DNA from: a virus
Lineage: Duplodnaviria > Caudoviricetes
Strand: one strand, 5' to 3'
IMG/VR virus record: IMGVR_UViG_3300027851_000002
Span: 1 to 59,513 of that record
Length of the DNA stretch: 59,513 bases
The notes below the pieces were generated by a model. That model was given only the letters and a program-made list of their open reading frames with translations, made no database searches and had not been told where the DNA came from. Made by a program: the position numbers and the translations under genes. Shown here piece by piece: positions 35,268-51,742 of this stretch. How positions within the stretch are numbered: the first letter of the stretch is position 1; every line of letters begins with the position of its first letter.

Positions 35268-35568
35268 TTTTTGTCTCCTTCTCAACGTATCTGCCGCGAA
35301 CCTCATGGTCGCAGTTTTTGCAGCGTTTCCAGTCAGGCCATATATCGTTAGCCGAACTACAAACCTTTTCCATTTCGTGCTGCTCTCCGTTCAGGCAATC
35401 GGCTTTTTCTGGCGAATAATGGAAGATTATTGATGTTGTGAAGACAAAGGTCTTTCCACAGTCTCCACAGTCCATTTCATGACGCTTATCTTCTGCATAT
35501 CCAAAGCCATCGTCATGACAGACCTCTAACTCGGCATCACAGTAAGGGCAGTTTATATCGTGCGACAT
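35254..35568 (-). CDS. Zinc-ribbon protein
   Basis: 'INCPYC...CGDCGK.F...ADCLNG..H'; TGATG coupling. Confidence 0.7.
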   Translation of the reverse strand: MSHDINCPYCDAELEVCHDDGFGYAEDKRHEMDCGDCGKTFVFTTSIIFHYSPEKADCLNGEQHEMEKVCSSANDIWPDWKRCKNCDHEVRGRYVEKETKNDRP

Positions 35569-36608
35569 CACCCCTCCTTCCCGCCGAGCAGGGCGAGGGC
35601 TTCTAAAACGCAATTTTCAAGAACAACACTGTTTTCCATTCTTGCTTTTATTCCGCGCTTTAAAAGTTTAACCACCTTTTCCCTCTGATCTACGTAGTAT
35701 TCAAGACGCTTTCTCCAAATTAATATATCTGCTTCACCGTTAGTTTCGTTATCAACCACATCCCTCAGCACGGCGGGGGATTGAAGGGCGGATTTGAAAG
35801 CCTGACTGTTGAAAATATGGTCTGATACGTTTCCGGCCCACTTTCCTGCCGTGAACGATAGCGTACCGTTACCCCCGCGCCAGTCAAAATCACATGGGAA
35901 GCATCCAGTATCTCCGCACCAATTGCCCCATTCATGGTTCATGGCTTTCAGAACAATGTCTCTGAATTGGCCTTCATCTAAAGCCGCTTGTCTCGGCGCG
36001 TCCGTTGGCTGCGGCTGCGTGGCTACGGTAGCGGCAAGCAGCATCGGCTCTACGGTATTCCAATCGTCAGAATCCAGCAATTCGGCCAGATATTCACCAA
36101 GGCGCTTTAGAGGCTCTGGCGCATTGCCTATCGCGGCCTGAATAAAGTCTTCTGCCGTAACTTCTGGAATTTCCCATGCTTTATTAATCAATGTCTGCAA
36201 AGTATTTATTTGTTGCTCATAGTTATTACCTGTGGAACCGCTTGATTGAACCATGTCATAAAGAACATCTATCCATGAACGTGCATTTTCAACCGCTTCC
36301 CTCACATCATCCGGCAAAACAGGGGATGCGTCCGTTGGCTGCACCAACACAATTTTTTCCTTGATATGGTCTATCTCTTCTTGCGTAATAAGCCCTTCAT
36401 CAATCAGTTCTTGTTTGAACTCTGATAGTGGTTTTGTTGGCTGCACCGTGGCGGCGTTCCATGCGGCTTGCCATGATGTCCATTGCGCGGATGCGTTTTT
36501 ATCAAGATAGTTTCCTGCACCTGTCTTATGCTTCCGGTGCGAGTAATTATCATCTTCCGTGATAAATTTCTCAAACTGTTCGCGGCACTTATCGGGTTGG
36601 GTGGTCAT
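35568..36608 (-). CDS. Mosaic hypothetical protein A (paralogue of 51212..51742)
   Basis: Shares MTT.PD.CRE.FE / WNAATVQPT / QPTDA / ALQSPAV / EALALLGGKE boxes. Confidence 0.8.
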   Translation of the reverse strand: MTTQPDKCREQFEKFITEDDNYSHRKHKTGAGNYLDKNASAQWTSWQAAWNAATVQPTKPLSEFKQELIDEGLITQEEIDHIKEKIVLVQPTDASPVLPDDVREAVENARSWIDVLYDMVQSSGSTGNNYEQQINTLQTLINKAWEIPEVTAEDFIQAAIGNAPEPLKRLGEYLAELLDSDDWNTVEPMLLAATVATQPQPTDAPRQAALDEGQFRDIVLKAMNHEWGNWCGDTGCFPCDFDWRGGNGTLSFTAGKWAGNVSDHIFNSQAFKSALQSPAVLRDVVDNETNGEADILIWRKRLEYYVDQREKVVKLLKRGIKARMENSVVLENCVLEALALLGGKEG

Positions 36609-37042
36609 TTTGTGTTCTCCTTATTTTCTAATTTTCGTTTTCTATATCTTTTGTCAGCATCTAATCTACATACCCTGCATCCCCTATCCCCGTCTGGCCT
36701 GATATATAAATTATTGCCAGATAGTTCGTGTCCATGCCTGCAATGTGTTATCATTTTCTTTGCTCTGGAAATGTTCTCCAAGTTTGTTACGGCTTCTAAA
36801 TGATCTGGATTAACGCAATGCTTCACACGACATATATGGTCTATAGTTAATCCTTCTGGGATTTTCCCAATATAGTGTTCATATGACCATCTATGCGCTT
36901 TCATAGACTTAGAATCTGCTGATACCCAAAACTGACAATATCCGTCTTTATCTTTATATGAATTAGATAGCCAACATCCACATTCTGAAACAGTGTAGCT
37001 TTTTGAAAACCTCTCAAATATGCTTTGCTTTTTCCGTCCCAT
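36605..37042 (-). CDS. HNH endonuclease with C-terminal Zn finger
   Basis: 'AHRWSYE...IDHICR..CVNPDHLEAVT..EN' plus 'THCRHGH...CRVC'; AT-rich. Confidence 0.9.
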   Translation of the reverse strand: MGRKKQSIFERFSKSYTVSECGCWLSNSYKDKDGYCQFWVSADSKSMKAHRWSYEHYIGKIPEGLTIDHICRVKHCVNPDHLEAVTNLENISRAKKMITHCRHGHELSGNNLYIRPDGDRGCRVCRLDADKRYRKRKLENKENTK

Positions 37043-37043
37043 A

Positions 37044-37451
37044 TTAGTCCTTAATAATTTTCAATCCGTTGGGGTATTTTAAAGCGAGATAAGAGCCGAA
37101 ATCGCACTCATAATCGTCGTTGAAACGCCAATTTTTTATATGCTCTGATATATCTGTTGGTGTCACAACCTCCACCGCATCGGCTTTGCTGGCTTCGGGG
37201 GTGCGGGTGTTCCAGTACTCAGTCAGGACTTCACGCGCTCGCTGCAATCCTTTTTCGGCATAGCAATAATGGGGTTCCATGATGAAGGAAAAGCCAGAAT
37301 CGTTGTGCCTTTCTTCATAAGTGAAGTGGTCAGAAGCCTGTATGCTGTATGATATACCGCACTCGGAGCAAATAATCTCTGGCTGCGTCCCGTTCAAATC
37401 TAAATCAGCTTCACCCCCACAAAACGGGCACGGCTTTAATTCTGTTGTCAT
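37044..37451 (-). CDS. Lar-family restriction alleviation-like protein
   Basis: 'LKPCPFCGGEA...C..C...WNTR'. Confidence 0.75.
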   Translation of the reverse strand: MTTELKPCPFCGGEADLDLNGTQPEIICSECGISYSIQASDHFTYEERHNDSGFSFIMEPHYCYAEKGLQRAREVLTEYWNTRTPEASKADAVEVVTPTDISEHIKNWRFNDDYECDFGSYLALKYPNGLKIIKD

Positions 37452-37720
37452 TCCTTGTTCTCCTTAACCTGTTTTGACAGTTCGGCGATCATGGCTTTGA
37501 ATAGCGTGGACGACTTGTGCGCAGGGTCTTGTATCCATGCCTTAGCACCCGCTGACAACATCCCATCACTCGGCTCCCCCATCGCAGCCTTTTGAAAGCG
37601 CAGGGCTTCAAGTATGGTTTTTCTGTTGGCATGAAACCAAAGGTAAATGTTGTCAGAGTTTATACTCCCGACATGCGGCAAACTCTCAATCGCCGCTTCG
37701 ATGCGTTCAAGGTCGGTCAT
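37448..37720 (-). CDS. Hypothetical protein
   Basis: GGAGG RBS; 'EPSDGML.AG' phage motif. Confidence 0.65.
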   Translation of the reverse strand: MTDLERIEAAIESLPHVGSINSDNIYLWFHANRKTILEALRFQKAAMGEPSDGMLSAGAKAWIQDPAHKSSTLFKAMIAELSKQVKENKE

Positions 37721-37721
37721 T

Positions 37722-37982
37722 TCAGTTTCCTCCGTACGGGTAGTGATACCGAAGTCGCTCACCGCCAAGACGTTTTATAAGCCTGTCGTAAGCCTGTTTC
37801 ATAGCCCATCGTTCAGGGCAGCTTGGAATAGGAACACCGTGAAATTTAGGAACGTCTTTCACGCAAACAAATTCCGCCTCGCCTGATTGCAAGTCTTCCC
37901 CTAATAGGGCGCAGCCGCAGTCACCGTCCATAAATAAAGCCACAGAGTATTTCTTTTTTAGGTTTTCGATATTACTTTCCAT
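37722..37982 (-). CDS. Hypothetical protein
   Basis: AAGGAG RBS; 'DGD..CALLGEDLQSGEAEF'. Confidence 0.6.
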   Translation of the reverse strand: MESNIENLKKKYSVALFMDGDCGCALLGEDLQSGEAEFVCVKDVPKFHGVPIPSCPERWAMKQAYDRLIKRLGGERLRYHYPYGGN

Positions 37983-38340
37983 CCATCTTCTCCTTATATG
38001 CTTGGTAGGCGGTGAGCTGCTTTTGAACAATCTCCCTAATCCTGTTTGCTTCTGACGTGCAAATAACGCTGCGCATTTCTGGCGAATAAGCCCTTTCATC
38101 ACGCATTGCCAGAATTCCAATATCTGCTAACGATCCAGACATCCCCTCAACCAACCCCCGCAGTTCTGCGATCTCGGCAAGGGCGGCTTGGTGGATGTGG
38201 TCGGCGTGGTATTTGTAGGGATAGTGACCGTTTTCTTGCGTTTCGTACCAGTCCATAGTCGGACTTCCTTCAACGTCTTTTGATAAACGGGTGTAAATCA
38301 CATCAGGCATCCCGCCGCGCTCGGTTTCTGGGGGTGTCAT
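37972..38340 (-). CDS. Hypothetical protein
   Basis: GGAGG RBS; in operon. Confidence 0.65.
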   Translation of the reverse strand: MTPPETERGGMPDVIYTRLSKDVEGSPTMDWYETQENGHYPYKYHADHIHQAALAEIAELRGLVEGMSGSLADIGILAMRDERAYSPEMRSVICTSEANRIREIVQKQLTAYQAYKEKMDGK

Positions 38341-38351
38341 TTTATTTGCTC

Positions 38352-38552
38352 CTAAATATAATCAACAACAATTTTACCACGGCCTGATAGGCGAACCTGA
38401 TTACCGTTTCTTACCCTTATCAACTCTCGATGTGGGAATTGAGATATAAGAGGCCATACGGTTTTAGAAACATTTCTCCATCCTTCTCCGACATCAGGGG
38501 AGCGAAGAAGAAGCTTTAAGAATGTTATGTCTTTAGGTGATAATTTTCCCAT
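38352..38552 (-). CDS. Small hypothetical protein
   Basis: Real start likely MGKLSPKD, just downstream of the tRNA-like RNA. Confidence 0.55.
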   Translation of the reverse strand: MGKLSPKDITFLKLLLRSPDVGEGWRNVSKTVWPLISQFPHRELIRVRNGNQVRLSGRGKIVVDYI

Positions 38553-38575
38553 TAGTATTTTCCTGTATTGATTGT

Positions 38576-38704
38576 TGGTAGGGTGGGGAGGAGTCGAACC
38601 TCCGGAACTTCCAGCGCTATCCATGGTCGCCGGTCATAATCCGCTTGCCTACCAGACTACATGCTTCCCGTTGCAACAGGTCGCGTTCATCTTGCGGCCA
38701 CCCC
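38576..38704 (-). ncRNA. tRNA-like RNA (129 nt) with expanded core
   Basis: Acceptor GGGGUGG/CCACCCU + A-CCA; T-arm GGAGG-UUCGACU-CCUCC; non-canonical interior. Confidence 0.75.
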
Positions 38705-38710
38705 ATAAGT

Positions 38711-38941
38711 TTATCCTGCTGTGTCTGAGCAGGTGTGGTCAGTAAGATCCTCAATGGATATTACTTCACTGAGAAAATCCACCGCCTTATCGTATGCTGA
38801 TCGCGCGTTGTTCTCCTCAACGTAAATCCTATGGAACTCATACCAGAAGAAAAGAAACTTTCTTTGAACTTCGTAGTAAGCGATGCCATAAGAGCTTCCT
38901 GATACAATCCGGTATTTATTTCTGTATTTATTCTTTGCCAT
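38711..38941 (-). CDS. Hypothetical protein
   Basis: 'KYRIV...YEVQRKFLFFW' phage family pattern. Confidence 0.6.
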   Translation of the reverse strand: MAKNKYRNKYRIVSGSSYGIAYYEVQRKFLFFWYEFHRIYVEENNARSAYDKAVDFLSEVISIEDLTDHTCSDTAG

Positions 38942-39134
38942 TGTTCAGTCCTTCCAACTTTTCTGGAACCGATACCCATACGCACTTCTGGCTTCTGGGT
39001 AGGTGTTTTTCGCATTGTTCCCTTTTGTCTTGATTGACAACATCCAGATCAATGTTCACCGATAAGGCAATAATAAAAGTTATTACCACTATAATGGCGT
39101 AAACAATTATCTCTCTGTCATTTAGGTCTTGCAT
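38928..39134 (-). CDS. Small membrane protein
   Basis: TM helix plus 'CEKHLPRSQKCV'. Confidence 0.65.
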   Translation of the reverse strand: MQDLNDREIIVYAIIVVITFIIALSVNIDLDVVNQDKREQCEKHLPRSQKCVWVSVPEKLEGLNNGKE

Positions 39135-39146
39135 ATCTTGAAATCC

Positions 39147-39530
39147 TTACCTATTTGTTTCCATCATCCTGACGCAGTATTCAAATCTCTCCATGACCAC
39201 TGAGACAGTGCGAACATTACGCTCCATGTCCGGTTCATCATAAAAACGAACAGGTGGTTGTGAGTCCGCATAGGACTCTTTGAATATTTGCAGGGCAATC
39301 GGCTCAAGCTCTTTACCTACCTGTTTTCCGATCTGGTGGGATATTTCCATCACCGCTCTTTGCAATAATCCGGACTTGTTGAGGTAAGCGTTGAAAGCTT
39401 CCTGTCTTGATTCACGCGACTTGTTCTTATACATGGCCGCGATTCTTTCCTTCTCCAGAACCTCGCCCTCAAGACGCTTTACCTGCTCTCTGTGCCTGCG
39501 CTTCTGGTTTCTTCCGTACCTTTTTGACAT
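39147..39530 (-). CDS. Hypothetical protein
   Basis: 'MSKRYGRNQKRR' phage N-terminal motif. Confidence 0.7.
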   Translation of the reverse strand: MSKRYGRNQKRRHREQVKRLEGEVLEKERIAAMYKNKSRESRQEAFNAYLNKSGLLQRAVMEISHQIGKQVGKELEPIALQIFKESYADSQPPVRFYDEPDMERNVRTVSVVMERFEYCVRMMETNR

Positions 39531-39542
39531 TCCTGTAATTCC

Positions 39543-40583
39543 TTATCTGGCAGCTTGCAGGGCGGCAAGACGTTTCTTATGCTCGTTGTCCACATGATCG
39601 TGCGCGGCCTGAGAAGCGGCCTTGATCTCCTCAAGGTCGGTCGCGTACTCCTGCATAAAGAAGTAAAGGTCTTGTTCGTCCTTTGCGCCATGAATACCGC
39701 GCACCATATCACCGGCTATGCGTTTTATGCGTTGTTCCTGCGTTTCAGAGCCGGTCTGCGTGTTTGGCGCATCTGTCGTGACGGTTTCCGATTTCGTTGC
39801 CTCTACGGGGTCTGTATTGGCTCCTGCGGCAGTTACCACAGGTGTGTTCATTTCCTTGATCTTGCGCCCGACTTCTTCTGAAAGCTGGCCTGCGTTGATA
39901 ATGAACTTTTTCAGCGTTCCATCAGCATCGTTGATACGCTTCATGTCGTTTGACCAATCAGGCCTTCCCTCGCTACCAGATGGCAGAAAAGCGGTCACTT
40001 CCATCTCATACCGGTATTCATCGCCACCAATCATATCCCACTCTTTGATAGGCTCCATTTTGCCCTGAGCATTACGCACTGGCTTGGTTACTTCCTTGGC
40101 GCGGAAGCAGAGGATGATATTTACCGGCAGGCGCTGGATTTTATTGACGATCAGCCTGTTACGCTCGCGTTTCGGCAAAATCCATGCCGCAAACTTCATG
40201 TTTTCGCGCTTTTTCCAATCATCACCTGCCTTTGCTCTCAGGAAATCTTCGTGCATTTCAAGCACCCCGCCTTCTCCTTCATGCTCATGGCTCATGCTGT
40301 CAATGATGATCGTTTCTGCCCCAGCTTTGATTGCGGCCTCGATAGCATCTCCATAGCTGTCTGGGTTGAATGGCGGCTGGAAGTCGATAATGTGGAAGTC
40401 AAAACGCTTCGCATATTTCTCGCTTCTCCTGTTTTCGGTATCGATTACAACAATCTTCCCGCCAATGCCCGTTGCCAGACGTAAGGCAGAAAAGGTTTTC
40501 CCAGACCCAGCGGAACCGACAAGGGCAATTCTTACATAAGTGTTGCCCGGCTCTGCTTTTTTTGTTTCAAATGTTCTTGTCAT
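39543..40583 (-). CDS. AAA_24/Sak4-like recombination ATPase
   Basis: 'GSAGSGKTFSAL', 'IDTE', 'IIIDSMSHEH.G.GG'; next to an exonuclease. Confidence 0.8.
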   Translation of the reverse strand: MTRTFETKKAEPGNTYVRIALVGSAGSGKTFSALRLATGIGGKIVVIDTENRRSEKYAKRFDFHIIDFQPPFNPDSYGDAIEAAIKAGAETIIIDSMSHEHEGEGGVLEMHEDFLRAKAGDDWKKRENMKFAAWILPKRERNRLIVNKIQRLPVNIILCFRAKEVTKPVRNAQGKMEPIKEWDMIGGDEYRYEMEVTAFLPSGSEGRPDWSNDMKRINDADGTLKKFIINAGQLSEEVGRKIKEMNTPVVTAAGANTDPVEATKSETVTTDAPNTQTGSETQEQRIKRIAGDMVRGIHGAKDEQDLYFFMQEYATDLEEIKAASQAAHDHVDNEHKKRLAALQAAR

Positions 40584-40594
40584 GGTTTTTCTCC

Positions 40595-41578
40595 TTAACC
40601 GGCCATAATGTATTCAGGTTCTTGTGTAGGCTGTGCCATACTGGCCTCATCCTTCTCACGCTGAACGGTTTCATCGTGAATGGCTTTATCCAGTTCCCAT
40701 TTCGACAGAATCCACGGCGGCGGGCATGAGTGTGTCGTGTACGGGGATTCACCGCGCCAAACACCGGTTTTGATGCAGTTGATAAAGCGGGCGCGGCCAC
40801 GCATGTAGCGTTCTGCGACATCTTCCTCGTAGCTGCGGTCAATCTCGTATATACGCATCAGGTAAGGCTCTTTCACCTGCTGGACAACATAGATAAACCG
40901 AGCCGGTGCGGAGTCTGGGTGACGTATCATGTCAAGAACTCGCTTGTAGTGGTGTTCCTGATAAAACTTTGTTTTCCACAGCTCGTTCTTTTCCCAATTC
41001 GCAAAATCGATGCCGGTTGTTTTGTAGTCAACGATCAGGTTTTCGTACTTCGATGTATGATCGAGCCAGTCAAAGCGGGCGCGGTTCCAAATCGTGCCAT
41101 CGAAGGCAAAGCCGGATTGTTCCGCCATGCCTTTTTGCATGATCTCCGAATATTCTTTATGTTCAGCGATCTGCTCATGCAGGGCTGTTTTCATTTTGTT
41201 GACATCTTCAAGGATGCTCTGCGTTGACAGGTTCAGGGGGATTTTCCCACGGCTGATGATGTCTGCTTTCAGTTCCTTGGCCTCTTTTGAGCGCCATGCG
41301 TCAACGGCGGCAACTTCAAATTTGCTCTCGCCGCCCAGAAGGATAAAGTCATGGGCTATGTTACCCAGATTGGAAGCGTCTGTTTGCTCTCTTTCCTTTT
41401 TTGGGTTTAGTTTGTTGATGCCCATGCGAGCCTCGATCTCGGTCATTTCAACGAGATCAGATAGCGTTGAAGAAGAAAGGGACGTGCAGTCCTTGAATCC
41501 TTCAAGTTCTGGTGTTGGGTCGCCATGATAGACATCTTCTGGCATACCGTTGATGATACAGTTCTGGGTGATTTGCAT
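40595..41578 (-). CDS. RecE/exonuclease VIII-like PD-(D/E)xK nuclease
   Basis: 'YH.DP...LSSS', 'G..AH...L', 'RARFD', 'VDYKTT', 'Y.Q..HY'. Confidence 0.85.
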   Translation of the reverse strand: MQITQNCIINGMPEDVYHGDPTPELEGFKDCTSLSSSTLSDLVEMTEIEARMGINKLNPKKEREQTDASNLGNIAHDFILLGGESKFEVAAVDAWRSKEAKELKADIISRGKIPLNLSTQSILEDVNKMKTALHEQIAEHKEYSEIMQKGMAEQSGFAFDGTIWNRARFDWLDHTSKYENLIVDYKTTGIDFANWEKNELWKTKFYQEHHYKRVLDMIRHPDSAPARFIYVVQQVKEPYLMRIYEIDRSYEEDVAERYMRGRARFINCIKTGVWRGESPYTTHSCPPPWILSKWELDKAIHDETVQREKDEASMAQPTQEPEYIMAG

Positions 41579-41599
41579 TTTTATCTCCTTGGTTAAAAA

Positions 41600-41875
41600 G
41601 TTGCTGTCTCTCCAGCTGTCAAGCACTTTAAACGCCATAGCTTGGGCGAACCACCGACATATCTGGGCCTTATTCGGCGGCTTACTTATACTCGCAGTTC
41701 CCGTGTCATAGGGTGACGGAGCCAAGCCCAGAGTAACTTCGGGGAGGTGAACTCAATCTTTGGACGCTCCCCACGCCCTCGACACTTCATGTCGGCTATC
41801 CTGATATTCCTACCAGTCTCTACCAGTTGTTAAATCACGTCCTCGGTATCAGCTGACGTTTCCCTTTCGGGAACT
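41600..41875 (-). ncRNA. Candidate structured RNA between the tRNA and the exonuclease gene
   Basis: Multiple hairpins (GAAA tetraloop), G.U pairs favouring the minus strand, possible pseudoknot. Confidence 0.55.
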
Positions 41876-41952
41876 TGGTGGTCGCAGAGGGATTTGAACC
41901 CCCGACCAGACCGTTATGAGCGGCCAGCTCTAACCAACTGAGCTATACGACC
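41876..41952 (-). tRNA. tRNA with CAU anticodon (Ile2/lysidine type more likely than Met)
   Basis: GGTCGTATAGCTCAGTTGGTTAGAGCTGGCCGCTCATAACGGTCTGGTCGGGGGTTCAAATCCCTCTGCGACCACCA; full cloverleaf with encoded CCA. Confidence 0.93.
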
Positions 41953-41972
41953 TGTAATTACCAATTTAGGTC

Positions 41973-41992
41973 ATTGACGATTAAAAGTCAAT
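41973..41992. promoter_or_regulatory. 20-bp palindromic operator/-35 element, copy 1 (tRNA promoter)
   Basis: ATTGACGATTAAAAGTCAAT; minus strand TTGACT-17-TAAATT. Confidence 0.65.
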
Positions 41993-45520: not shown

Positions 45521-46006
45521 ATGCACGATATGAAAAACACAGCCCCCTATGCGCGGGGCAACGAAGCATCGCGTCTGGCCGCACATGGCATCGAACACAG
45601 ACTTACCGGAATAAGATCGGATGTCTTTGATTTCATTGTTTCACGGGAAACATACGGCGCAACAAATTCAGAAATAGCCGAAGGCCTGTCAATGATGCGG
45701 GATAATACCCAGCCGCGCACTTCCGAGCTGCGGGAAGCCGGATACATCGAGAGCAAAGGGAAAATGAGGCTCAACGGCAATGGCCGGAACGAAACGGTAT
45801 GGGTGGCCTGCCAGTCCGTTCCTGCCGGTGAATGGCAGGCGGTCAAGAAAAAGGCCGCTCCGGTCAAAGAGCAGGCCGAACAGGCGCAATCCGGTCTTTG
45901 GGTGTTTGATGATGTCCTGCGCCGCAACCCCCATCTCAGAAACACGTTTCGGATGTCTGAAATCAGTATCATCCGGGCAGACCTTGCTAAGGCCGAAGGG
46001 GTATAG
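45521..46006 (+). CDS. Winged-HTH protein
   Basis: 'GAT..EIA..L....QPRTSEL...G.I...G..R....GR...VW'. Confidence 0.7.
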   Translation: MHDMKNTAPYARGNEASRLAAHGIEHRLTGIRSDVFDFIVSRETYGATNSEIAEGLSMMRDNTQPRTSELREAGYIESKGKMRLNGNGRNETVWVACQSVPAGEWQAVKKKAAPVKEQAEQAQSGLWVFDDVLRRNPHLRNTFRMSEISIIRADLAKAEGV

Positions 46007-46010
46007 GGAT

Positions 46011-46778
46011 ATGCCTGATTTTTATTACCAGATAAAAGCGAAAACAGGACGTAATGACGAGTTCATGCGCTGGAGCTGGCCTCCGGTATTTTCTGGAATG
46101 GTGAGCGCCGCCGACAAGAAGCAGGCTCGCGCACTGGTTGACGATGAGTATGGACAAAAATTCCCGATGCGTGTTCTGCAAAAGGACATTGATAGTGCCG
46201 AGTTCTTGCTTAATATTTTCGAGGTGCGTCCGGAAGATGATCGAACCCGTGGCCTGTTCGAGATCCGTTCATGCAAGCAATGCGGCGGCGGGTTCCGTGT
46301 CATAGATCATTACAACAACTGGATACAAAGATATTCAGGGCGTGATTTTTGTTCGGATGATTGCAAGGAAAGCTATGTCAAAGAACATGACAGTGCATTG
46401 TTCAGCAATGCGTCCAACAGTACACATCCCCCTGTGATTTACCGCATAACCCACCAAGATACAGGAATGTCTTATGTCGGGCAGACCACGCAGGCTTTCA
46501 CGCTTCGCTGGTGGCAGCATTTCTTTCATGGCACCGATACCAAGTTCCATCGAGCTATCGAGGAAAGCTCCATGACGGATTGGGTGTTTCAGGTAATCGA
46601 GGTCATAGATCGTAAAGCGGTACCGGATGGAATGATTCTTTCTGACCATATCAGGGAACGAGAGCAACACTGGATAAACCATCTGGATACGATTGCCAGA
46701 GGGTACAACACGGCAACATCGCGCCGCCGTGAAGAAGAACTTCAAATGATGGAATTTATTGAACAAGAAAGGGCTTAA
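46011..46778 (+). CDS. GIY-YIG nuclease with N-terminal Zn-finger region
   Basis: 'VIYRITH..TG.SYVGQT...RW.QH...RE..WI...GYN'; 'C..CG..F...FCS..C'. Confidence 0.85.
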   Translation: MPDFYYQIKAKTGRNDEFMRWSWPPVFSGMVSAADKKQARALVDDEYGQKFPMRVLQKDIDSAEFLLNIFEVRPEDDRTRGLFEIRSCKQCGGGFRVIDHYNNWIQRYSGRDFCSDDCKESYVKEHDSALFSNASNSTHPPVIYRITHQDTGMSYVGQTTQAFTLRWWQHFFHGTDTKFHRAIEESSMTDWVFQVIEVIDRKAVPDGMILSDHIREREQHWINHLDTIARGYNTATSRRREEELQMMEFIEQERA

Positions 46779-46780
46779 AA

Positions 46781-47137: not shown

Positions 47138-47151
47138 AGGAAAGCCAAAAA

Positions 47152-47808
47152 ATGCAAAAATCAAGACCGGTACTATTCAGCCGTGAAATGTCTCTGGCGG
47201 TTCTCGATGGCAGAAAAAACCAGACCCGCAGAGCCGACAAGGATACGCATAGCCCAGAGTTTACATGGAACGGGCGTATGTTCACCCACCCAAGGGGGTT
47301 TGTGCTGTCAAAAAAATGTCCCTACGGTTCAGTTGGTGATTATCTCTGGGTTCGGGAAGAACATTATCGCTTCGGGCATTGGGAGCCAGTTGAAGGTGTT
47401 CTGACCAAAGGTGGCAAACAGAAGTGGAAGTTCGTTGCAGACCATGAAACCGTTTGCTTCGATCCACCCGCCCTTCACCGAAAAAGCATGAACAAGAAAA
47501 CACCTGAACTTCCGTCATGGTACAAACGCATTGCCCGGTTCATGCCGAAGTCACTGAGCCGGACAACGCTGGAGATCACAGGAGTCCGGTATGAACGCCT
47601 GCACGAGATAAGCGAGGAAGATGCCCGTGATGAAGGGTGCGAAATGGTTGGTGTAGAGACCGGAGAGATCGGTTATACCGGACATCCGATTGAGGTTGGC
47701 AGCTATTCGGCCTGTTTCTATGAACTCTGGGAATCTATCAACGGCGCGGGCTCATGGGACGCAAACCCGTTTGTCTGGGTTATAGACTTCAAGCAGGTGC
47801 GGCCATGA
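47152..47808 (+). CDS. ASCH-like phage protein
   Basis: 'PVLFS..M..A.LDGRK.QTRR', 'CPYG..GD.LWVRE', 'FMP...SR..LEIT.VR.ERL..I', 'W..NP.VWV'. Confidence 0.75.
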   Translation: MQKSRPVLFSREMSLAVLDGRKNQTRRADKDTHSPEFTWNGRMFTHPRGFVLSKKCPYGSVGDYLWVREEHYRFGHWEPVEGVLTKGGKQKWKFVADHETVCFDPPALHRKSMNKKTPELPSWYKRIARFMPKSLSRTTLEITGVRYERLHEISEEDARDEGCEMVGVETGEIGYTGHPIEVGSYSACFYELWESINGAGSWDANPFVWVIDFKQVRP

Positions 47809-48329
47809 CAACAAAACATCACAACTCACTCGATGGCGTTTACTCAAGGGCGGCATACTCTGCCTGTGAAACGTATAGGTATTGTCTTGAGCGTAAGTGG
47901 GGGGAAGAAAAAAGCCTTTGCTTCATAATGCTCAACCCATCAACAGCAACAGAGCAGCAAAATGACCCCACGGTGGAGAGGTGTGAGCGGCGGGCGCGGG
48001 CGGGCGGTTACGGCAGTCTGATCGTGCTGAACATTTTCGCGTACCGAGCCACTGACCCAAGAGACATGAAGGCAGTTTTTGACCCCATTGGCAAAGAAAA
48101 CAATAAATTTATAGAATTAACCCTCATGCTGAGCAGATCGGAAAGCACGGACATTGTTTGTGGCTGGGGAACGCATGGCTCTTTCATGGACAGAGAGAAG
48201 CAGGTTTTTGAAATGTTCAGAAAGTACCGTGTTGTTCCCAAGGCTCTTGACTGGACAAAGCATGGGCATCCCAAGCACCCGCTGTATGTGCCGTACAAAA
48301 ACCAACCGCACGAGAAGCCATATGCGTAA
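47805..48329 (+). CDS. DUF1643 family protein
   Basis: 'YRY.L.R.W', 'FIMLNPSTA', 'DPT', 'N.FA.RATDP', 'GHPKHPLY'. Confidence 0.85.
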   Translation: MTTKHHNSLDGVYSRAAYSACETYRYCLERKWGEEKSLCFIMLNPSTATEQQNDPTVERCERRARAGGYGSLIVLNIFAYRATDPRDMKAVFDPIGKENNKFIELTLMLSRSESTDIVCGWGTHGSFMDREKQVFEMFRKYRVVPKALDWTKHGHPKHPLYVPYKNQPHEKPYA

Positions 48330-49038
48330 GGAAGTCATTGGAAACTGTGATCTGTATCTGGGCGACATGCGGGAAATATTGCCCAGCCTTGGAGAGTGCG
48401 CCGATCTGGCCTGCTTCGACCCGCCATACCAGCTCGAGTCCGGTGGGAATACCACAGGAGAGATGGGCGGAAAGTTTTCTAAGGACAGATACGACAACAG
48501 CGGTTCTATTGTTGATACAGACATAGACTGGCCGGACTTCATGCCGCTGGTGTATCAGAGCCTGCGCGGTGATGCCCATGCTTATGTGATGGCGAATAAC
48601 CGGCATGTCCAAAACATGCTTTTCAGTGCCGAGGAATCGGGGTTTCGTTTTCACAACCTTTTGGTATGGGATAAAAGCACGGCCACTCCAAACAGGTGGT
48701 ACATGAAAAACTGCGAGTTCACCGGATTTTTCTTTAAGGGAAAGGCAAAATACGTAAACGATTGCGGTGCCAGACAGCTTATCCATGTCCCACAGGAGTC
48801 CTATGGAGACCATCCAACCACAAAGCCAGTTATGCTGATGCGGCATTATGTCGAGCAGTCCACGAAAAGGGGGGAAACAGTTTTAGACCCGTTCATGGGC
48901 TCATGTGCAACGGGAGCTGCATGTATTCAGTCTGGCCGAAGGTTCATAGGAATCGAGATCGACCCTGAATACTTTGACCTTTCCTGTAAGAGAATAGAGG
49001 CCGAAACGAAACGTATAGAACAGATGTCATTGCTGTAA
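48322..49038 (+). CDS. DNA N4-C/N6-A methyltransferase (beta class)
   Basis: 'DPPY', 'HPTTKP', 'VLDPFMGS', 'FIGIEID'. Confidence 0.9.
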   Translation: MRKEVIGNCDLYLGDMREILPSLGECADLACFDPPYQLESGGNTTGEMGGKFSKDRYDNSGSIVDTDIDWPDFMPLVYQSLRGDAHAYVMANNRHVQNMLFSAEESGFRFHNLLVWDKSTATPNRWYMKNCEFTGFFFKGKAKYVNDCGARQLIHVPQESYGDHPTTKPVMLMRHYVEQSTKRGETVLDPFMGSCATGAACIQSGRRFIGIEIDPEYFDLSCKRIEAETKRIEQMSLL

Positions 49039-49045
49039 TTTTACT

Positions 49046-49065
49046 ATTGACTAATATAAATCAAT
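49046..49065. promoter_or_regulatory. 20-bp operator/-35 element, copy 4
   Basis: ATTGACTAATATAAATCAAT followed by TATAAG; heads the right accessory operon. Confidence 0.6.
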
Positions 49066-49096
49066 GCGTATAAGATGAAGAAGAAGGAAATGCACT

Positions 49097-49270
49097 ATGT
49101 CAGATAAGTCAGTCAAAATAACCGTATCTGTTTCAACAGATAACGGAGACATAAAAATTATCGAGCATTGTGTTCCAGAGAACAGTGTCGAGATGTTTCT
49201 GATCTCGACAAGAAACGAGGCCGTTGCCAAGGCGCTTGTCGCGCTCGGATGGATGCCGCCAAAGGAGTAA
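49097..49270 (+). CDS. Small hypothetical protein (57 aa)
   Basis: AAGGA RBS; ends 'ALVALGWMPPKE'. Confidence 0.6.
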   Translation: MSDKSVKITVSVSTDNGDIKIIEHCVPENSVEMFLISTRNEAVAKALVALGWMPPKE

Positions 49271-49273
49271 GAT

Positions 49274-49687
49274 ATGAAACAGACATTTTTTGGAAAACTA
49301 TCAGTGATTCACTGCGCCAACTGTGGAATCGCTTTTGGTATCACCACAGACTTTGAAGAACGCCGCCGCGCCGATCACAAAGACTTTATGTGCCCTAATG
49401 GCCACTCCAATTTTTACAACGGCGAAAGCGAAGAAGAAAAGCTGCGCCGTGAAAACCAGCGCCTTACTCAGAACAGAGCCTATCTGGAAGATCAAATCCG
49501 TAACAGAGAACAACAGGCAGAGTATGAGCGTAACCGCGCAAAGGCTTTCAAGGGTCATTTGACCAGAACGAAAAAGCGCGTTTCTGCCGGTGTGTGCCCG
49601 TGCTGTAACCGGACGTTCAAAGACCTTGCCCGGCACATGGAAACGAAGCACCAAGGATATGCTGAAAAGGAATCCTGCAATGGATAG
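49274..49687 (+). CDS. Zn-binding coiled-coil protein
   Basis: 'C.NCG', 'F.CPNGH', 'CPCCNRTF..L.RHM..KH'. Confidence 0.75.
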   Translation: MKQTFFGKLSVIHCANCGIAFGITTDFEERRRADHKDFMCPNGHSNFYNGESEEEKLRRENQRLTQNRAYLEDQIRNREQQAEYERNRAKAFKGHLTRTKKRVSAGVCPCCNRTFKDLARHMETKHQGYAEKESCNG

Positions 49688-49844
49688 GTATGTTGTTTAT
49701 GAGTTCAATGCAGGATTTGCCCCCATTCAAGTTGAGAGCTTTCCTTCCGAAATTTCTGCGGCCAAGATGGTAAGCAATAATAAAAAGAAATGGTTCGCAG
49801 TTGACTTGGAAACGGGTAAGGGAATAACGCCGTTTAGAACTTGA
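49680..49844 (+). CDS. Hypothetical protein
   Basis: AAGGA RBS, overlapping start. Confidence 0.5.
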   Translation: MDRYVVYEFNAGFAPIQVESFPSEISAAKMVSNNKKKWFAVDLETGKGITPFRT

Positions 49845-49856
49845 AAGGGTACTTAG

Positions 49857-50054
49857 ATGTTTATTGTAATTCCGGCAAAAGAAACAACTCAGCAGGTCAG
49901 TATAAGGCTACAGATTGAAGCGATAAAGCAGGAGTATGAAAAGCGTATCGAGCATCTTGCGAATCTTTATGCTGATTTACAGTATCCACCTTCATACATG
50001 GTTGAGGTAGGTAGGTTATATAATTTTGTAGGTGAAAAAAATGAAAAAAAGTAA
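49857..50054 (+). CDS. Hypothetical protein
   Basis: ORF in operon. Confidence 0.5.
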   Translation: MFIVIPAKETTQQVSIRLQIEAIKQEYEKRIEHLANLYADLQYPPSYMVEVGRLYNFVGEKNEKK

Positions 50055-50165
50055 GCGCATAAAAAACAGACCGCTCCGCATGCTGGCGTTTTTTATTCTT
50101 TCGCCGTACTTCATCTGTCAAACAGTTGATGTTTCGATCTGCTTTGAAGAATTTAAGGAGCTGTT

Positions 50166-50507
50166 TTGGCGGGCATGGGAAAAGTGACCTGTAAAAGATG
50201 GGAAACCCGCCGCAAGAAATACGGCAATGCCGGACACGGCGGCATATACGCCCGCACCGGCTCAGGTCATTTATACGAGCCCATGAGGCGCGTACAGAGG
50301 ATGGAGAAAGCCCTTTTCGAGCTTCATGTTGACGGTGTGCTTTCAGAGGGGCAGATAGCCGAGATAACGGGATACAAAAGAGTCGAGTGCCGCCGCAGAG
50401 CGGATGAAATAATTCAGGAAAGAGAAGCCAATGAAATTAGCAGAAGCATTAGAGATACTGGCAACGGAGAAGATCGACCTGACACCACGCCAGAAGTCGG
50501 CGGTTGA
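50166..50507 (+). CDS. Hypothetical protein with HTH-like C-terminus
   Basis: AAGGAG RBS; 'LSEGQIAEITG..RV..R'. Confidence 0.6.
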   Translation: MAGMGKVTCKRWETRRKKYGNAGHGGIYARTGSGHLYEPMRRVQRMEKALFELHVDGVLSEGQIAEITGYKRVECRRRADEIIQEREANEISRSIRDTGNGEDRPDTTPEVGG

Positions 50508-50856
50508 GCGCGTTGTAAAATGTTGTAGTAAACAACAATACTCTGCTTGTGATGGATCTTTAACAGATGAACAGATAAATGATTTATTCAGTAAAAATAC
50601 AGGTGGAAGTATAGTTCAGGTTCGTCAAAGACCACCAATCGTTTTTGATAAAGAAGGCCATGTTGTTCGTCAGGAAAACATAACGGAGGATTCCTTCGAT
50701 GAGTGGATGTCTGAACGCTGGAACGAATACGCCCGCGCCGGTCTGGACGATGAAAGCTCACCAAACTACGACCCGCACAAAGCAATCGAAGAATTTATCT
50801 CTGACTTTCAGGATAGGTTTCCTCATGGTGCCCGTATCATAAAGGGAAAAAAATAA
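50431..50856 (+). CDS. Hypothetical protein
   Basis: C-terminus 'FPHGARIIK' resembles 'YPNGLKIIK' of 37044..37451. Confidence 0.65.
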   Translation: MKLAEALEILATEKIDLTPRQKSAVERVVKCCSKQQYSACDGSLTDEQINDLFSKNTGGSIVQVRQRPPIVFDKEGHVVRQENITEDSFDEWMSERWNEYARAGLDDESSPNYDPHKAIEEFISDFQDRFPHGARIIKGKK

Positions 50857-51215
50857 TGAAATACTTCTTATATTCACCAGAAGAAACCCTTTGGTTCGAC
50901 AATGATACAGAGTGGAAAAATGCAGTAGATTCCTATGACTTCCTTGGAAATCATTGTGATGATGGCTGGGATTGTGATGTTGAAGATGTCATGGCTGGTA
51001 AGGCTCCAAATGAATTTGTTCTTGACAGAGAACAATGCCACTACGACCAGCTTTTGCCATACGCAACTTTGAAATCAAAGATGTGCGATTTAGCTAAAAG
51101 GCCACCAGATAGCGAACTGGATGAAGAAGGGCAAGATTCCGAAGGTCGGTACTGGGGTGAGTATGATTATTACTGCAATTACTTTTTTGTAGATTGTGAA
51201 GGACAAGAAAAATGA
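50856..51215 (+). CDS. Acidic hypothetical protein
   Basis: TAATG coupling; 'DGW..DVE.V..G'. Confidence 0.65.
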   Translation: MKYFLYSPEETLWFDNDTEWKNAVDSYDFLGNHCDDGWDCDVEDVMAGKAPNEFVLDREQCHYDQLLPYATLKSKMCDLAKRPPDSELDEEGQDSEGRYWGEYDYYCNYFFVDCEGQEK

Positions 51216-51742
51216 CCACCAAACCAGACCAGTGCCGAGAGGCTTTTGAACAGAGATACCCCTACGCCGCCTTTAGAGATGGCGAAGGCTATCAGGACAT
51301 ACGCATTAACGGACATGTTGTAAAGTACTTGTGGGAAGGCTGGCAATCCGCATGGAACGCCGCCACGGTGCAGCCAACGGACGCGCCGAAACAGGAGGCT
51401 TACTATTTCGGTTATGATACAGGTGGCAAAGACATTTCTGCGCTCTGTGTACGTCAAGGGGATAGGGTTGTCGGAATTGTTCACGGGGAGCTTGCCGATG
51501 CAATCAAAGCCGCCCTGCAATCCCCCGCCGTGCCGAGTTGGCAGCCGATTGAGACTGCGCCGAATGATGGCACAATCTTACTGACCTATGATTCCATTAG
51601 GGAAGAAACGCATATTGCATACCTTAGCTATGGGTGCTGGAATATCGTAGGTGCGGAGGATATAGAATACAGACCCACCTACTGGATGCCACTTCCGCAA
51701 CCACCAGAAGCCCTCGCCCTGCTCGGCGGGAAGGAGGAGTGA
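51212..51742 (+). CDS. Mosaic protein B with DUF551-like cassette
   Basis: Shared boxes with 35568..36608; 'WQPIETAP.DGT...PTYWMPLP.PP'. Confidence 0.8.
   Translation: MTTKPDQCREAFEQRYPYAAFRDGEGYQDIRINGHVVKYLWEGWQSAWNAATVQPTDAPKQEAYYFGYDTGGKDISALCVRQGDRVVGIVHGELADAIKAALQSPAVPSWQPIETAPNDGTILLTYDSIREETHIAYLSYGCWNIVGAEDIEYRPTYWMPLPQPPEALALLGGKEE

What the first reader, a model, noticed from the sequence alone, without database searches (positions are those of the whole stretch)
35568..51742. Candidate cassette-shuffling system: paralogous genes A and B built from conserved in-frame DNA boxes around unrelated cassettes
Seen: gene A (35568..36608, -) and gene B (51212..51742, +) share only short boxes, which are near-identical at DNA level. 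These are the start (MTT.PD.CRE.FE); 36436-36473 vs 51341-51378 (37/38 nt); 35768-35791 vs 51510-51533 (23/24); and 35568-35604 vs 51706-51742 (36/37, which includes the stop and the next gene's AAGGAGG RBS). The GCAGCCAAC(GGACGC) 'QPT(DA)' box recurs three times in A (36436, 36328-36345, 35993-36012), each followed by a different segment. The intervening segments are unrelated, look more AT-rich, and one is a known mobile DUF551-like domain. Established: Sak4/RecE-type phage recombinases can use short homologies, and 'boundary' sequences are known between lambdoid genes. Inference: these intragenic boxes are fixed, frame-preserving exchange points for swapping and stacking protein modules.
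Basis: partly seen in the sequence, partly recalled or inferred. Interest (0 to 1): 0.85.

Follow-up and report, generated by a model that had tools for sequence, protein, structure and literature searches.

The report
Linker boxes shuffle phage protein domains
Two early genes of a freshwater phage are chains of small protein domains joined by short linkers that are identical at the DNA level, and related phages carry other domains between the same linkers, which points to in-frame domain swapping by recombination at the linkers.

Summary
The window is a complete 59.4-kb phage genome. Gene A (35568-36608, -) and gene B (51212-51742, +) share five short in-frame DNA boxes (16-38 nt, 91-100% identical) around unrelated segments. 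These boxes are the only repeats a self-BLAST finds apart from the terminal repeat. Boxes use the same codon for 34 of 37 shared residues, against 4 of 9 in the homologous N-terminus. They are GC-rich and lie at predicted helix ends plus Pro/Thr/Ala linkers, or at the gene end with the next gene's RBS.

A second gene pair (34428-35306 / 51920-52357) shows the same pattern. Nineteen related proteins from other assemblies carry the same peptide boxes. Of the 21 family members, 16 have the layout TDAQRQAA - X - ALQSPAVP - Y - ALLGGKEG, with 14 different X and 15 different Y cassettes. Cassettes reassort independently, with breakpoints at the boxes.

Most likely reading: short-homology recombination at linker boxes shuffles domains of accessory proteins. 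The phage encodes a Sak4-type annealase and a PD-(D/E)XK exonuclease.

Not shown: DNA-level box conservation in relatives (no DNA could be fetched), ongoing exchange, the enzyme responsible, or any protein function.

This is a new variant of motif-flanked cassette shuffling, as in T-even gp38. It is not shown to be a dedicated system.

The parts
35568..36608 (-). Gene A, 346 aa. Chain: N-terminal CRExFE...AWNAAT domain - box 1 - short helical cassette - box 2 - helical cassettes (aa 96-199) - box 2b - Cys-rich cassette X (aa 207-268) - box 3 - helical cassette Y - box 4.
   Evidence: ORF. Its start overlaps the HNH gene's stop (ATGA) and its stop overlaps the next gene's start. AF2 model. The domains are found separately in other proteins.
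51212..51742 (+). Gene B, 176 aa. Chain: N-terminal domain - box 1/2 - beta-rich cassette X - box 3 - DUF551-like cassette Y - box 4.
   Evidence: ORF, Pfam, AF2, homologues.
36436..36473 (-). Box 1 in A (peptide WQAAWNAATVQPT): the helix end of the N-terminal domain plus the linker.
   Evidence: 37/38 identical to 51341-51378. Same codon at 9 of 10 identical residues. Residues 53-59 have pLDDT<50 and are coil.
51341..51401 (+). Box 1 plus box 2 in B (peptide WQSAWNAATVQPTDAPKQEA).
   Evidence: Helix 40-52 followed by coil 53-60.
36328..36345 (-). Box 2 in A (VQPTDA), 18/18 identical to B.
   Evidence: Residues 88-95 have pLDDT<50.
35981..36012 (-). Box 2b in A (QPTDAPRQAA), 29/32 identical to B, with a 20-nt exact core.
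   Evidence: It lies at the boundary between two independently distributed domains (hits to aa 142-208 and aa 205-270). Coil at 198-211.
35764..35797 (-). Box 3 in A (KSALQSPAVL).
   Evidence: 31/34 identical to 51504-51537. Same codon at 7 of 8 identical residues.
51504..51537 (+). Box 3 in B (KAALQSPAVP): the end of helix 92-103 plus the linker.
35567..35604 (-). Box 4 in A (EALALLGGKEG, stop). It contains AAGGAGG for the next gene, whose ATG overlaps the stop.
   Evidence: 37/38 identical to 51706-51743 with a 32-nt exact core. All 10 sense codons and the stop codon are identical. Sequence.
51706..51743 (+). Box 4 in B (EALALLGGKEE, stop, RBS of gene 51744-51923).
34428..35306 (-). Second mosaic gene on the left arm, two genes downstream of A. 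The likely start is the MTDHK Met at 35267. It shares exact DNA boxes with 51920-52357 at 34843-34862 (RAATAP, 20 nt) and 35116-35132 (LDRIEA, 17 nt).
   Evidence: It shares cassettes with P0167, P0176, P0171, P0175 and P0173.
51920..52357 (+). Second mosaic gene on the right arm, two genes downstream of B. Its boxes lie at 52172-52191 and 52019-52035.
39543..40583 (-). Sak4-type (AAA_24) candidate annealase, in the same leftward operon as A.
   Evidence: PF13479 at 45.3 bits against a cut-off of 27. phrog_124 'Sak4-like' at 4.8e-8 and phrog_1366 at 1e-52.
40595..41725 (-). PD-(D/E)XK exonuclease (exonuclease VIII/RecE-like).
   Evidence: PF12684 at 36.2 bits against a cut-off of 26, and PF12705. 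phrog_412 at 5.5e-34.
36605..37042 (-). HNH endonuclease gene directly upstream of A. Its paralogue at 52793-53254 (+) lies 1 kb downstream of B.
   Evidence: PF13392 at 53 bits, phrog_826, paralogy. A role in promoting exchange is speculation.

Best explanation
A and B, and a second pair at 34428-35306 / 51920-52357, belong to a family of mosaic early accessory proteins found in one lineage of freshwater phages.

Each protein is a chain of small, independently folding domains of unknown function. The domains are joined by a small set of conserved linker boxes:
- AWNAATVQPT(D/E)A..RQ: a helix end plus a Pro/Thr/Ala linker.
- ALQSPAVP.
- RAATAP.
- A gene-end box, ALALLGGKEG-stop, which is also the Shine-Dalgarno sequence of the next gene.

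The boxes are GC-rich, in one codon phase, and identical at the DNA level where the flanking cassettes are unrelated. They therefore offer 16-38 nt of homology. Crossovers between co-infecting relatives, prophages, or the two arms of one genome would give in-frame products.

Shown:
- The boxes and their excess DNA identity.
- Their position at predicted domain boundaries.
- Many alternative cassettes and independent reassortment in related proteins.

Inferred:
- The crossovers occur inside the boxes by short-homology recombination.
- The phage's own Sak4-type annealase and PD-(D/E)XK exonuclease catalyse them.
- The nearby HNH endonucleases may add double-strand breaks.

This is an evolutionary process acting on standard linkers. 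It is not demonstrated to be a dedicated switch.
For: Within the window:
- The box pairs are far beyond chance.
- In boxes 1, 2b, 3 and 4, 34 of 37 identical residues (stop included) use the same codon. In the homologous N-terminal start the figure is 4 of 9. Fisher p=0.004, or 0.006 after dropping the stop and the B codons counted twice.
- Given the peptide and the genome's codon usage, the probability that all codons agree is 2e-5 for box 1 and 1.3e-5 for box 4.
- All 5 boxes are in the same phase in A and B.
- Boxes 1, 2 and 2b coincide with low-pLDDT coil between helices in the model of A (pLDDT 71.5). In B (pLDDT 58, low confidence) they coincide with a helix end plus coil.
- A's segments aa 142-208, 205-270 and 4-62 occur separately in other proteins. 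There were 263 hits at E<=1e-3, and the best 150 were inspected by their coordinates.

In relatives, at protein level only:
- Three searches gave 19 further proteins with the same boxes.
- 16 of 21 family members, A and B included, have the layout Q box - X - S box - Y - C tail. There are 14 X clusters and 15 Y clusters. Median cassette identity is 19% for X and 17% for Y.
- P0176 matches P0167 upstream (100% over the last 60 aa), P0171 in X (100%) and P0165 in Y (90%). Its other segments match those partners at only 13-23%.
- P0005 and P0165 share X (98%) but not Y (16%).

Other:
- A second gene pair shows 20-nt and 17-nt exact boxes.
- Recombination genes are present.
- Phage annealases acting on short or diverged homology: PMC3945230 (passages read, Rad52-like only). 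Sak4 annealing activity: PMC5928155 (listing and start of abstract only).
Against: - No nucleotide sequence of any relative could be fetched. Synonymous conservation of the boxes across phages, which is the key prediction, is therefore untested. The peptide boxes may be conserved for protein reasons such as helix caps or linkers.
- The DNA evidence rests on one genome and a few dozen codons. Some B codons enter two comparisons.
- No A/B chimeric protein appeared among the hits to A (2 proteins) or to B (13 proteins).
- In the likely source run, single contigs bridge boxes 2, 2b and 3 of A and box 3 of B in the parental arrangement, and no A-B joint was listed. Contigs drop rare variants, so this does not exclude exchange.
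- 16-20 nt boxes are short for efficient homologous recombination. No experiment on Sak4-type enzymes with such lengths was seen.
- 5 of the 21 family members did not fit the full Q-X-S-Y-C layout under my regular expressions. One segmentation (P0002) is doubtful.
- The cassette boundaries were set by patterns that I wrote after seeing the sequences.
Confidence: 0.65

Rival explanations
1. Ordinary paralogy with conserved linkers. The boxes are helix caps or linkers kept by selection on the protein. The DNA identity in this genome comes from codon bias or from an occasional gene conversion between the two arms. The cassette diversity arose by other routes, such as illegitimate recombination or insertion, without the boxes acting as exchange points.
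For: - The boxes are conserved as peptides in all relatives.
- They are rich in Ala/Pro/Thr/Gly, with GC-rich preferred codons.
- Looser versions of the same linker style occur in distant proteins such as P0021, P0027 and P0033.
- The N-terminal domains of A and B are true diverged homologues.
Against: - Codon identity in the boxes exceeds the expectation from genome codon usage (2e-5 and 1.3e-5). It contrasts with the saturated synonymous sites a few codons away.
- Reassortment breakpoints in relatives fall at the boxes in every case examined.
- Identity ends sharply at the box edges.
Confidence: 0.2
2. The boxes are functional nucleic-acid elements. Box 4 would be a translational-coupling element, combining the Shine-Dalgarno sequence, the stop/start overlap and a hairpin that hides the SD. 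Other boxes would be sites for a regulator that acts on both divergent early operons. Their DNA conservation would reflect that function rather than recombination.
For: - Box 4 contains AAGGAGG and the stop/start junction in both copies.
- Both copies fold into the same hairpin pairing CCCUC with the SD.
- The peptide tail ...GGKEG is at or within a few residues of the C-terminus in the 16 members that my patterns segmented.
Against: - Fold energies are not better than shuffles (z from -0.87 to +1.19 for six box windows).
- The first 18 nt of box 4 and all of boxes 1-3 lie outside any RBS.
- The five boxes have five unrelated sequences.
- This reading does not explain cassette reassortment in relatives.
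Confidence: 0.08
3. Programmed site-specific inversion. The small serine recombinase at 53912-54595 would flip the segment between the inverted boxes, swapping C-terminal parts between A and B as Gin does in the Mu G segment (that parallel is recalled, not checked).
For: - All A/B boxes are inverted repeats inside coding sequence and in phase.
- A resolvase/invertase-type gene lies 2.2 kb from B (PF00239 at 79 bits; phrog_125 'DNA invertase' at 2.5e-24).
Against: - The five boxes are unrelated in sequence, so there is no common recombinase site.
- No NCBIfam invertase model comes near its cut-off (Mpi 21.8 bits against 272).
- No inversion joint was listed.
- Reassortment across many different proteins in relatives fits general rather than site-specific recombination.
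Confidence: 0.04
4. Assembly artefact: the short repeats caused a chimeric contig.
For: k=31 unitigs of the likely source run break exactly at boxes 1 and 4.
Against: - The record closes on a 127-nt terminal overlap, much longer than the boxes.
- Proteins A and B are on record on 2 contigs each, the longest 59,527 nt.
- Two further runs hold pieces of the same phage at 100% identity.
- Both genes are intact and in frame, and relatives show the same architecture.
Confidence: 0.02

Closest known systems
T-even phage gp38 adhesins and tail-fibre 'conserved motif' recombination. In gp38, glycine-rich motifs (GRMs) separate hypervariable segments. Source: PMC3157838, passages read; it cites Tetart et al. 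1998, which was not read.
   Same: - Conserved short motifs in a fixed order bracket highly variable segments inside one gene.
- Variable segments occur in different combinations.
- Exchanges between phages map between the motifs.
- There is a small conserved motif at the C-terminal end.
   Different: - gp38 is a virion adhesin and its GRMs form one structural core of a single domain. Here the proteins are early, non-structural chains of separate domains, and the boxes are inter-domain linkers plus a gene-end/RBS box.
- The same boxes recur in several genes on both divergent early operons of one genome.
- No crosses were done here.
Mosaicism of lambdoid and other temperate phages by relaxed homologous recombination at short or diverged homology. 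Source: PMC3945230, passages read. The 'boundary sequence' idea of Clark et al. 2001 appears in its reference list and was not read.
   Same: - Short conserved stretches flank exchanged pieces.
- Phage-encoded annealase and exonuclease genes are present.
- That paper notes that gene fragments are exchanged more often than whole modules.
   Different: - Those data concern Rad52-like recombinases and homologies of hundreds of bp. 'Sak4' does not occur in that text.
- Here the homologies are 16-38 nt, intragenic and in frame, and they coincide with protein domain linkers.
PeSL mobile regulatory cassettes of T4-type phages. Sources: PMC2839356 and PMC4122927, search listing and start of abstract only.
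   Same: Repeated short conserved DNA elements at module borders are proposed to mediate shuffling. Box 4 likewise carries an expression signal (the RBS).
   Different: - PeSLs are intergenic promoter/stem-loop motifs that move whole genes.
- Boxes 1-3 here are coding and move protein domains.
- The scan listed one weak promoter-like match overlapping box 3 of A (35794-35821, + strand, antisense to A, 9 of 12) and one weak terminator-like match overlapping box 2 of A (36334-36348, + strand, a 5-pair stem); neither count exceeded shuffles.
Survey of protein-fragment shuffling in phage proteins. Source: PMC10684548, passages read.
   Same: Domain-level mosaicism in phage proteins is described as ongoing. 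The authors expect much more of it in accessory proteins of unknown function.
   Different: That study does not discuss linkers or breakpoints ('linker' 0 and 'breakpoint' 0 occurrences). Here specific DNA-identical linker boxes are identified as the likely junctions.
Polyvalent proteins of phages and conjugative elements (concept recalled; Pfam names LPD1, LPD5 and ART-PolyVal seen).
   Same: Stacking of many small accessory domains in one polypeptide. This same phage also encodes a 3902-aa polyvalent protein.
   Different: A and B are small (176-346 aa), carry none of the polyvalent-protein Pfam domains, and use a repeated linker vocabulary.

Membership tests
Motif-flanked cassette shuffling (T-even gp38 type) | Conserved motifs in a fixed order separating hypervariable segments within one gene family | tested here: met
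   16 of 21 proteins have Q box - X - S box - Y - C tail, with 14 X and 15 Y clusters.
Motif-flanked cassette shuffling (T-even gp38 type) | Variable segments found in different combinations in natural isolates | tested here: met
   P0176 against P0167, P0171 and P0165; P0005 against P0165.
Motif-flanked cassette shuffling (T-even gp38 type) | Motifs similar enough at the nucleotide level to support homologous crossovers | tested here: inconclusive
   Met within this genome (91-100% over 16-38 nt). No relative's DNA could be fetched.
Motif-flanked cassette shuffling (T-even gp38 type) | Recombinants with crossovers in the motifs obtained in crosses | not testable with these tools
   The host is unknown and no experiment was possible.
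Motif-flanked cassette shuffling (T-even gp38 type) | Receptor-binding virion protein | tested here: not met
   A and B lie in the two divergent early operons among recombination, replication, Lar-like and HNH genes. So this works like gp38 but is not a member.
DUF551 (PF04448), last cassette of B | Score at or above Pfam's gathering threshold | tested here: inconclusive
   21.4 bits against a cut-off of 22, covering only profile positions 52-68. The WQPIETAP...THWMPLPxPP pattern aligns with homologues, of which P0010 and P0011 carry PF04448.
Sak4-type recombinase (AAA_24, PF13479), gene 39543-40583 | Pfam AAA_24 above threshold and a match to Sak4-like phage families | tested here: met
   45.3 bits against 27. 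phrog_124 at 4.8e-8. Annealing activity was not tested.
RecE/exonuclease VIII-like PD-(D/E)XK nuclease, gene 40595-41725 | PD-(D/E)XK domain above threshold and a match to phage exonuclease VIII families | tested here: met
   PF12684 at 36.2 bits against 26, PF12705 at 24.3 against 22. phrog_412 at 5.5e-34.
Invertible-segment switch (Gin/Hin type) | One common recombinase site in inverted orientation, plus an invertase | tested here: not met
   The five boxes have unrelated sequences. The serine recombinase is far below the invertase model cut-off.
PeSL-type regulatory cassette | Promoter plus stem-loop motif between genes | tested here: not met
   Boxes 1-3 are coding. The scan listed one weak promoter-like match overlapping box 3 of A (35794-35821, antisense to A, 9 of 12) and one weak terminator-like match overlapping box 2 of A (36334-36348, + strand, 5-pair stem), none at the B copies. 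Hairpins are not better than shuffles.

The most novel reading that the evidence does not exclude
The boxes form a lineage-wide standard 'linker grammar', kept identical at the DNA level by second-order selection for evolvability. It would let these phages assemble and re-assort small anti-host domains in frame, both between phages and between the two early operons of one genome.

All A/B and second-pair boxes are inverted and collinear with transcription. A single crossover at any box would therefore flip the 15-17 kb early region and swap the distal modules of the leftward and rightward operons without breaking a frame. That would give a reversible, recombinase-driven repertoire switch.
Probability: 0.15. 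Interest if true: 0.8.

Novelty: new variant of a known kind. Interest (0 to 1): 0.6.

Why it matters
Phage genomes are full of small early proteins of unknown function that differ even between close relatives. How that diversity arises is mostly described only as 'mosaicism'.

This locus gives a concrete, testable rule. A handful of linker sequences, identical at the DNA level and in one reading phase, mark where domains are exchanged. One of them doubles as the ribosome-binding site of the next gene.

If relatives' DNA and crosses confirm it:
- It would extend motif-mediated cassette shuffling from tail-fibre adhesins to non-structural accessory proteins.
- It would give a way to delimit unknown domains in such proteins automatically, by cutting at the boxes.
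- It would offer natural in-frame junctions for building chimeric phage proteins.

Tried and rejected
Search for relatives' DNA (none of the family found):
- blastn of 35200-37100 against 50,697 phage records: no match.
- tblastn of A: 1 record (a Pseudomonas phage, aa 146-198 only, 49%). tblastn of B: none.
- Exact box 1 and box 4 in viral contigs: 0 and 0.
- Degenerate patterns for AWNAATVQP and ALQSPAVPREV in viral contigs: 0 and 0. In metagenome contigs: 0. In genome contigs: 0.
- The pattern for TDAQRQAAL(D/E) in viral contigs gave 8 loci. 0 of 8 are family members; they are tape-measure-like and Gly/Asp-rich proteins.
- The search for related loci with A, B or alignment A1 gave only L003, a lambdoid-like contig with two distant N-domain homologues.

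Reads:
- One search gave 3 runs. All were laid.
- The two other runs (X2, X3) gave only short pieces (178-347 nt listed) identical to the window. The source run (X1) also gave many less similar partial contigs (53 of its 74 laid were under 95% alike, 49 only partly on the stretch) whose positions were not shown. No diverged relative's gene for A or B could be read from the output.
- k=31 unitigs end at boxes 1 and 4, so linkage across them, chimeras and inversion isomers cannot be judged from this output.
- The one listed joint and most loose ends lie at the tRNA gene.

Function:
- Pfam and NCBIfam give nothing for A.
- Foldseek of the A model: 0 matches at E<=0.001 in PDB (177 at E<=10) and 0 in BFVD.
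- Protein Atlas scores were at most 0.83, so they are leads only.
- PF26207 (Phage_phiTE_015), precomputed for A, is absent from the local Pfam copy.

RNA structure of the boxes is not better than shuffles.

- The look-up of encoding contigs is stated as closed and was not called.
- Supplements of papers were not consulted.

Full report
**What the window is.** The first and last 127 bases are identical. The record is classed as a virus genome with direct terminal repeats, 100% complete. It is therefore one complete phage genome of about 59.4 kb.
- Structural genes and a 3902-aa polyvalent protein fill 1-34 kb.
- Two divergent early operons start near 44 kb.
- The leftward operon (43.8 to 34.4 kb) holds a PD-(D/E)XK exonuclease (40595-41725), a Sak4-type AAA_24 protein (39543-40583), a Lar-like zinc-ribbon protein, an HNH endonuclease and then gene A.
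- The rightward operon (44.2 to 53.7 kb) holds a replication initiator, methyltransferase and other genes, then gene B.
- A and B are tightly coupled to their neighbours by ATGA and TGATG overlaps.
- Runs that hold the phage are labelled freshwater metagenomes.

**The observation.**
- A against B gives these matches: 38 nt at 97.4%, 37 nt at 97.3%, 34 nt at 91.2%, 32 nt at 90.6%, 18 nt at 100%, and the gene start at 26 nt, 84.6%.
- In a self-BLAST of the whole window, the four longest pairs are the only matches besides the terminal repeat.
- Pattern searches with up to 3 mismatches give 3, 2 and 2 matches, against 0.17, 0.00 and 0.00 expected.
- The genome has 23 exact repeats of 15 nt or more, against 1-6 in ten shuffles. 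Six of the nine repeats of 17 nt or more join 34.8-36.5 kb to 51.3-52.2 kb. All six are inverted and in the same order along the direction of transcription.
- Boxes are 62-72% GC and the segments between them 34-50%.

**DNA-level or protein-level conservation.**
- In boxes 1, 2b, 3 and 4, 34 of 37 identical residues (stop included) use the same codon. In the first 14 codons, which are also conserved as protein, only 4 of 9 do. Fisher p is 0.004, or 0.006 on a more conservative count.
- Given the peptides and this genome's codon usage, complete codon agreement has probability 2e-5 for box 1 and 1.3e-5 for box 4.
- The gene start is therefore old protein-level homology. It is part of a 58-aa N-terminal domain with 44% identity.
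- The other boxes share recent DNA ancestry or are constrained as DNA.
- All five are in the same codon phase in both genes.

**Where the boxes sit in the proteins.**
- The AF2 model of A has mean pLDDT 71.5. Its low-confidence coil segments are 53-59, 88-95 and 205-207. These are boxes 1, 2 and 2b, lying between helical units.
- The model of B is weak (pLDDT 58). It places box 1 at the end of helix 40-52 plus coil, box 3 at the end of helix 92-103 plus coil, and box 4 as a short terminal helix.
- An exhaustive phmmer search with A found 263 proteins at E<=1e-3. The best-matching stretches of the 150 listed fall into separate blocks: aa 142-208, aa 205-270 and aa 4-62. Each block occurs at varied positions in proteins of varied length.
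- Box 2b lies exactly between two such blocks. The cassettes are thus independent small domains and the boxes are their joints.
- None has a known function. Pfam and NCBIfam give nothing for A. B's last cassette is DUF551-like, just under threshold. Fold searches and the protein atlas gave nothing usable.

**Relatives.**
- Word-indexed searches with A, B and an alignment gave 19 further proteins carrying the same peptide boxes. Most come from Logan assemblies.
- With A and B, 16 of 21 have the layout: upstream modules - TDAQRQAA-type box - cassette X - ALQSPAVP-type box - cassette Y - ALLGGKEG tail.
- Further shared boxes are AWNAAT, RAATAP/RAATQP and ALTTPPAP.VMGDDVREAV.
- The 16 proteins hold 14 different X and 15 different Y cassettes. 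Median pairwise identity is 19% and 17%.
- The few shared cassettes reassort:
  - P0176 equals P0167 upstream (100% of the last 60 aa), P0171 in X (100%) and P0165 in Y (90%). Its other segments are 13-23% identical to those partners.
  - P0005 and P0165 share X (98%) but not Y (16%).
  - B's X cassette recurs at the N-terminus of P0005, where it is followed by a different box.
- Other window genes take part. The gene at 34428-35306 shares cassettes with P0167, P0176, P0171 and P0175. The Lar-like gene's C-terminal half recurs in P0170.
- The pair 34428-35306 / 51920-52357 has its own exact DNA boxes of 20 nt (RAATAP) and 17 nt (LDRIEA).
- This is the pattern expected if crossovers happen at the boxes. 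It is not expected from gradual divergence.

**What could not be shown.**
- No DNA of any relative could be fetched. The phage collection, IMG/VR, the JGI metagenome contigs and the species-representative genomes gave no family member with exact or degenerate box patterns or with protein-guided scans.
- So synonymous conservation of the boxes between phages remains open.
- The three runs that hold the sequence gave, in the rows shown, only pieces identical to this phage; the many less similar partial contigs of the source run were not listed, so no relative's A or B gene could be read.
- Logan unitigs (k=31) end exactly at boxes 1 and 4, because those are exact repeats of 31-32 nt. Linkage across them cannot be read.
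- Single contigs bridge the shorter boxes in the parental arrangement. No A-B joint was listed, but contigs drop rare variants.
- No chimeric A/B protein appeared among the protein hits.

**Mechanism proposed.**
- Short-homology recombination occurs inside the boxes, between co-infecting relatives or prophages and possibly between the two arms. It yields in-frame exchange, insertion or stacking of domains.
- Box 4 additionally carries the next gene's Shine-Dalgarno sequence and the stop/start junction. A crossover there exchanges gene ends without disturbing translational coupling.
- The phage's own AAA_24 (Sak4-type) protein and PD-(D/E)XK exonuclease are the obvious candidates.
- Published work shows that phage annealases drive mosaic formation on short and diverged homology (PMC3945230, passages read; Rad52-like enzymes only). 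Sak4 has annealing activity (PMC5928155, listing and start of abstract only).
- HNH endonuclease genes lie next to A and 1 kb from B. They could supply breaks, which is speculation.

**Rivals.**
- Purely protein-level conservation of linkers does not explain the codon identity or the sharp box edges.
- An RNA or regulatory role is plausible for the RBS part of box 4 only. Fold energies are not better than shuffles.
- Site-specific inversion by the small serine recombinase at 53912-54595 is unlikely. The five boxes have unrelated sequences, and the enzyme is far from the invertase models.
- An assembly artefact is unlikely given the 127-nt closure and the same proteins on a second 59,527-nt contig.

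**Comparison with what is known.**
- The closest analogue is the T-even gp38 adhesin. There, conserved glycine-rich motifs in a fixed order separate hypervariable segments that occur in different combinations and can be swapped in crosses (PMC3157838, passages read).
- The present case works like that but is not a member. The proteins are early and non-structural. The motifs are inter-domain linkers and a gene-end/RBS box. The same boxes recur in several genes on both early operons.
- It also resembles the boundary-sequence view of lambdoid mosaicism and the PeSL elements of T4-type phages (PMC2839356, listing only). Those act between genes.
- A survey of fragment shuffling in phage proteins predicts much hidden mosaicism in accessory proteins but does not mention linkers or breakpoints (PMC10684548).
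- My literature searches did not turn up this family or this linker vocabulary. They were few and keyword-based, so this is not proof that it is unpublished.

**Verdict.**
- The exchange-point interpretation is supported by independent protein-level evidence. It is unproven at the DNA level in relatives and unproven as an active system.
- It is a new variant of a known kind. Interest is 0.6.

Noticed in passing
22175-33883 (+): A single 3902-aa ORF with Pfam InPase, LPD5, LPD1 and ART-PolyVal domains: a giant 'polyvalent protein' placed after the tail genes.
   Followed up: partly
41876-41952 (-): tRNA-Met (CAT) between the exonuclease gene and the 494-aa gene. In the laid runs this spot collects very high depth and many loose ends from other organisms' tRNA genes.
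   Followed up: partly
41972-41992 and 57734-57754: A 21-nt exact inverted repeat that is itself palindromic (ATTGAC-N8-GTCAAT) and overlaps promoter-like hexamers at both places. It looks like a shared operator/promoter for two leftward transcription units.
   Followed up: partly
53912-54595 (-): A small (227 aa) serine recombinase of resolvase/invertase type, just beyond a strong bidirectional terminator at 53694-53727. Its target and role (integration, resolution or inversion) are unknown.
   Followed up: partly
36605-37042 (-), 52793-53254 (+), 45780-46778 (+): Three homing-endonuclease-like genes in the early region: two paralogous HNH genes (32% identity over 85 aa) and one with a GIY-YIG-type C-terminal match.
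   Followed up: no
37044-37451 (-): A Lar-like zinc-ribbon protein (TIGR03655 at 32.4 bits, below the cut-off of 39.6). Its C-terminal half recurs (65% over 54 aa) at the end of the mosaic protein P0170, and its N-terminal ribbon recurs in P0175. It therefore takes part in the same shuffling network.
   Followed up: partly
35254-35568 (-) and 51744-51923 (+): The small genes directly after A and B are unrelated to each other (a Cys-rich 104-aa protein and a Lys/Glu-rich 59-aa protein). Both start at the box 4 junction.
   Followed up: no
L003:3983-4381 and L003:4520-4699: A lambdoid-like IMG/VR contig carries two distant homologues of the CREQFE...W.AW N-terminal domain. They lie side by side between a DnaC-like gene and a NinB-like gene (my reading of the translations, not tested with a family search). 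In that phage the domain stands alone or has other C-terminal parts.
   Followed up: no
48154-49038 (+) and 57785-59101 (+): Two DNA methyltransferase-like genes.
   Followed up: no
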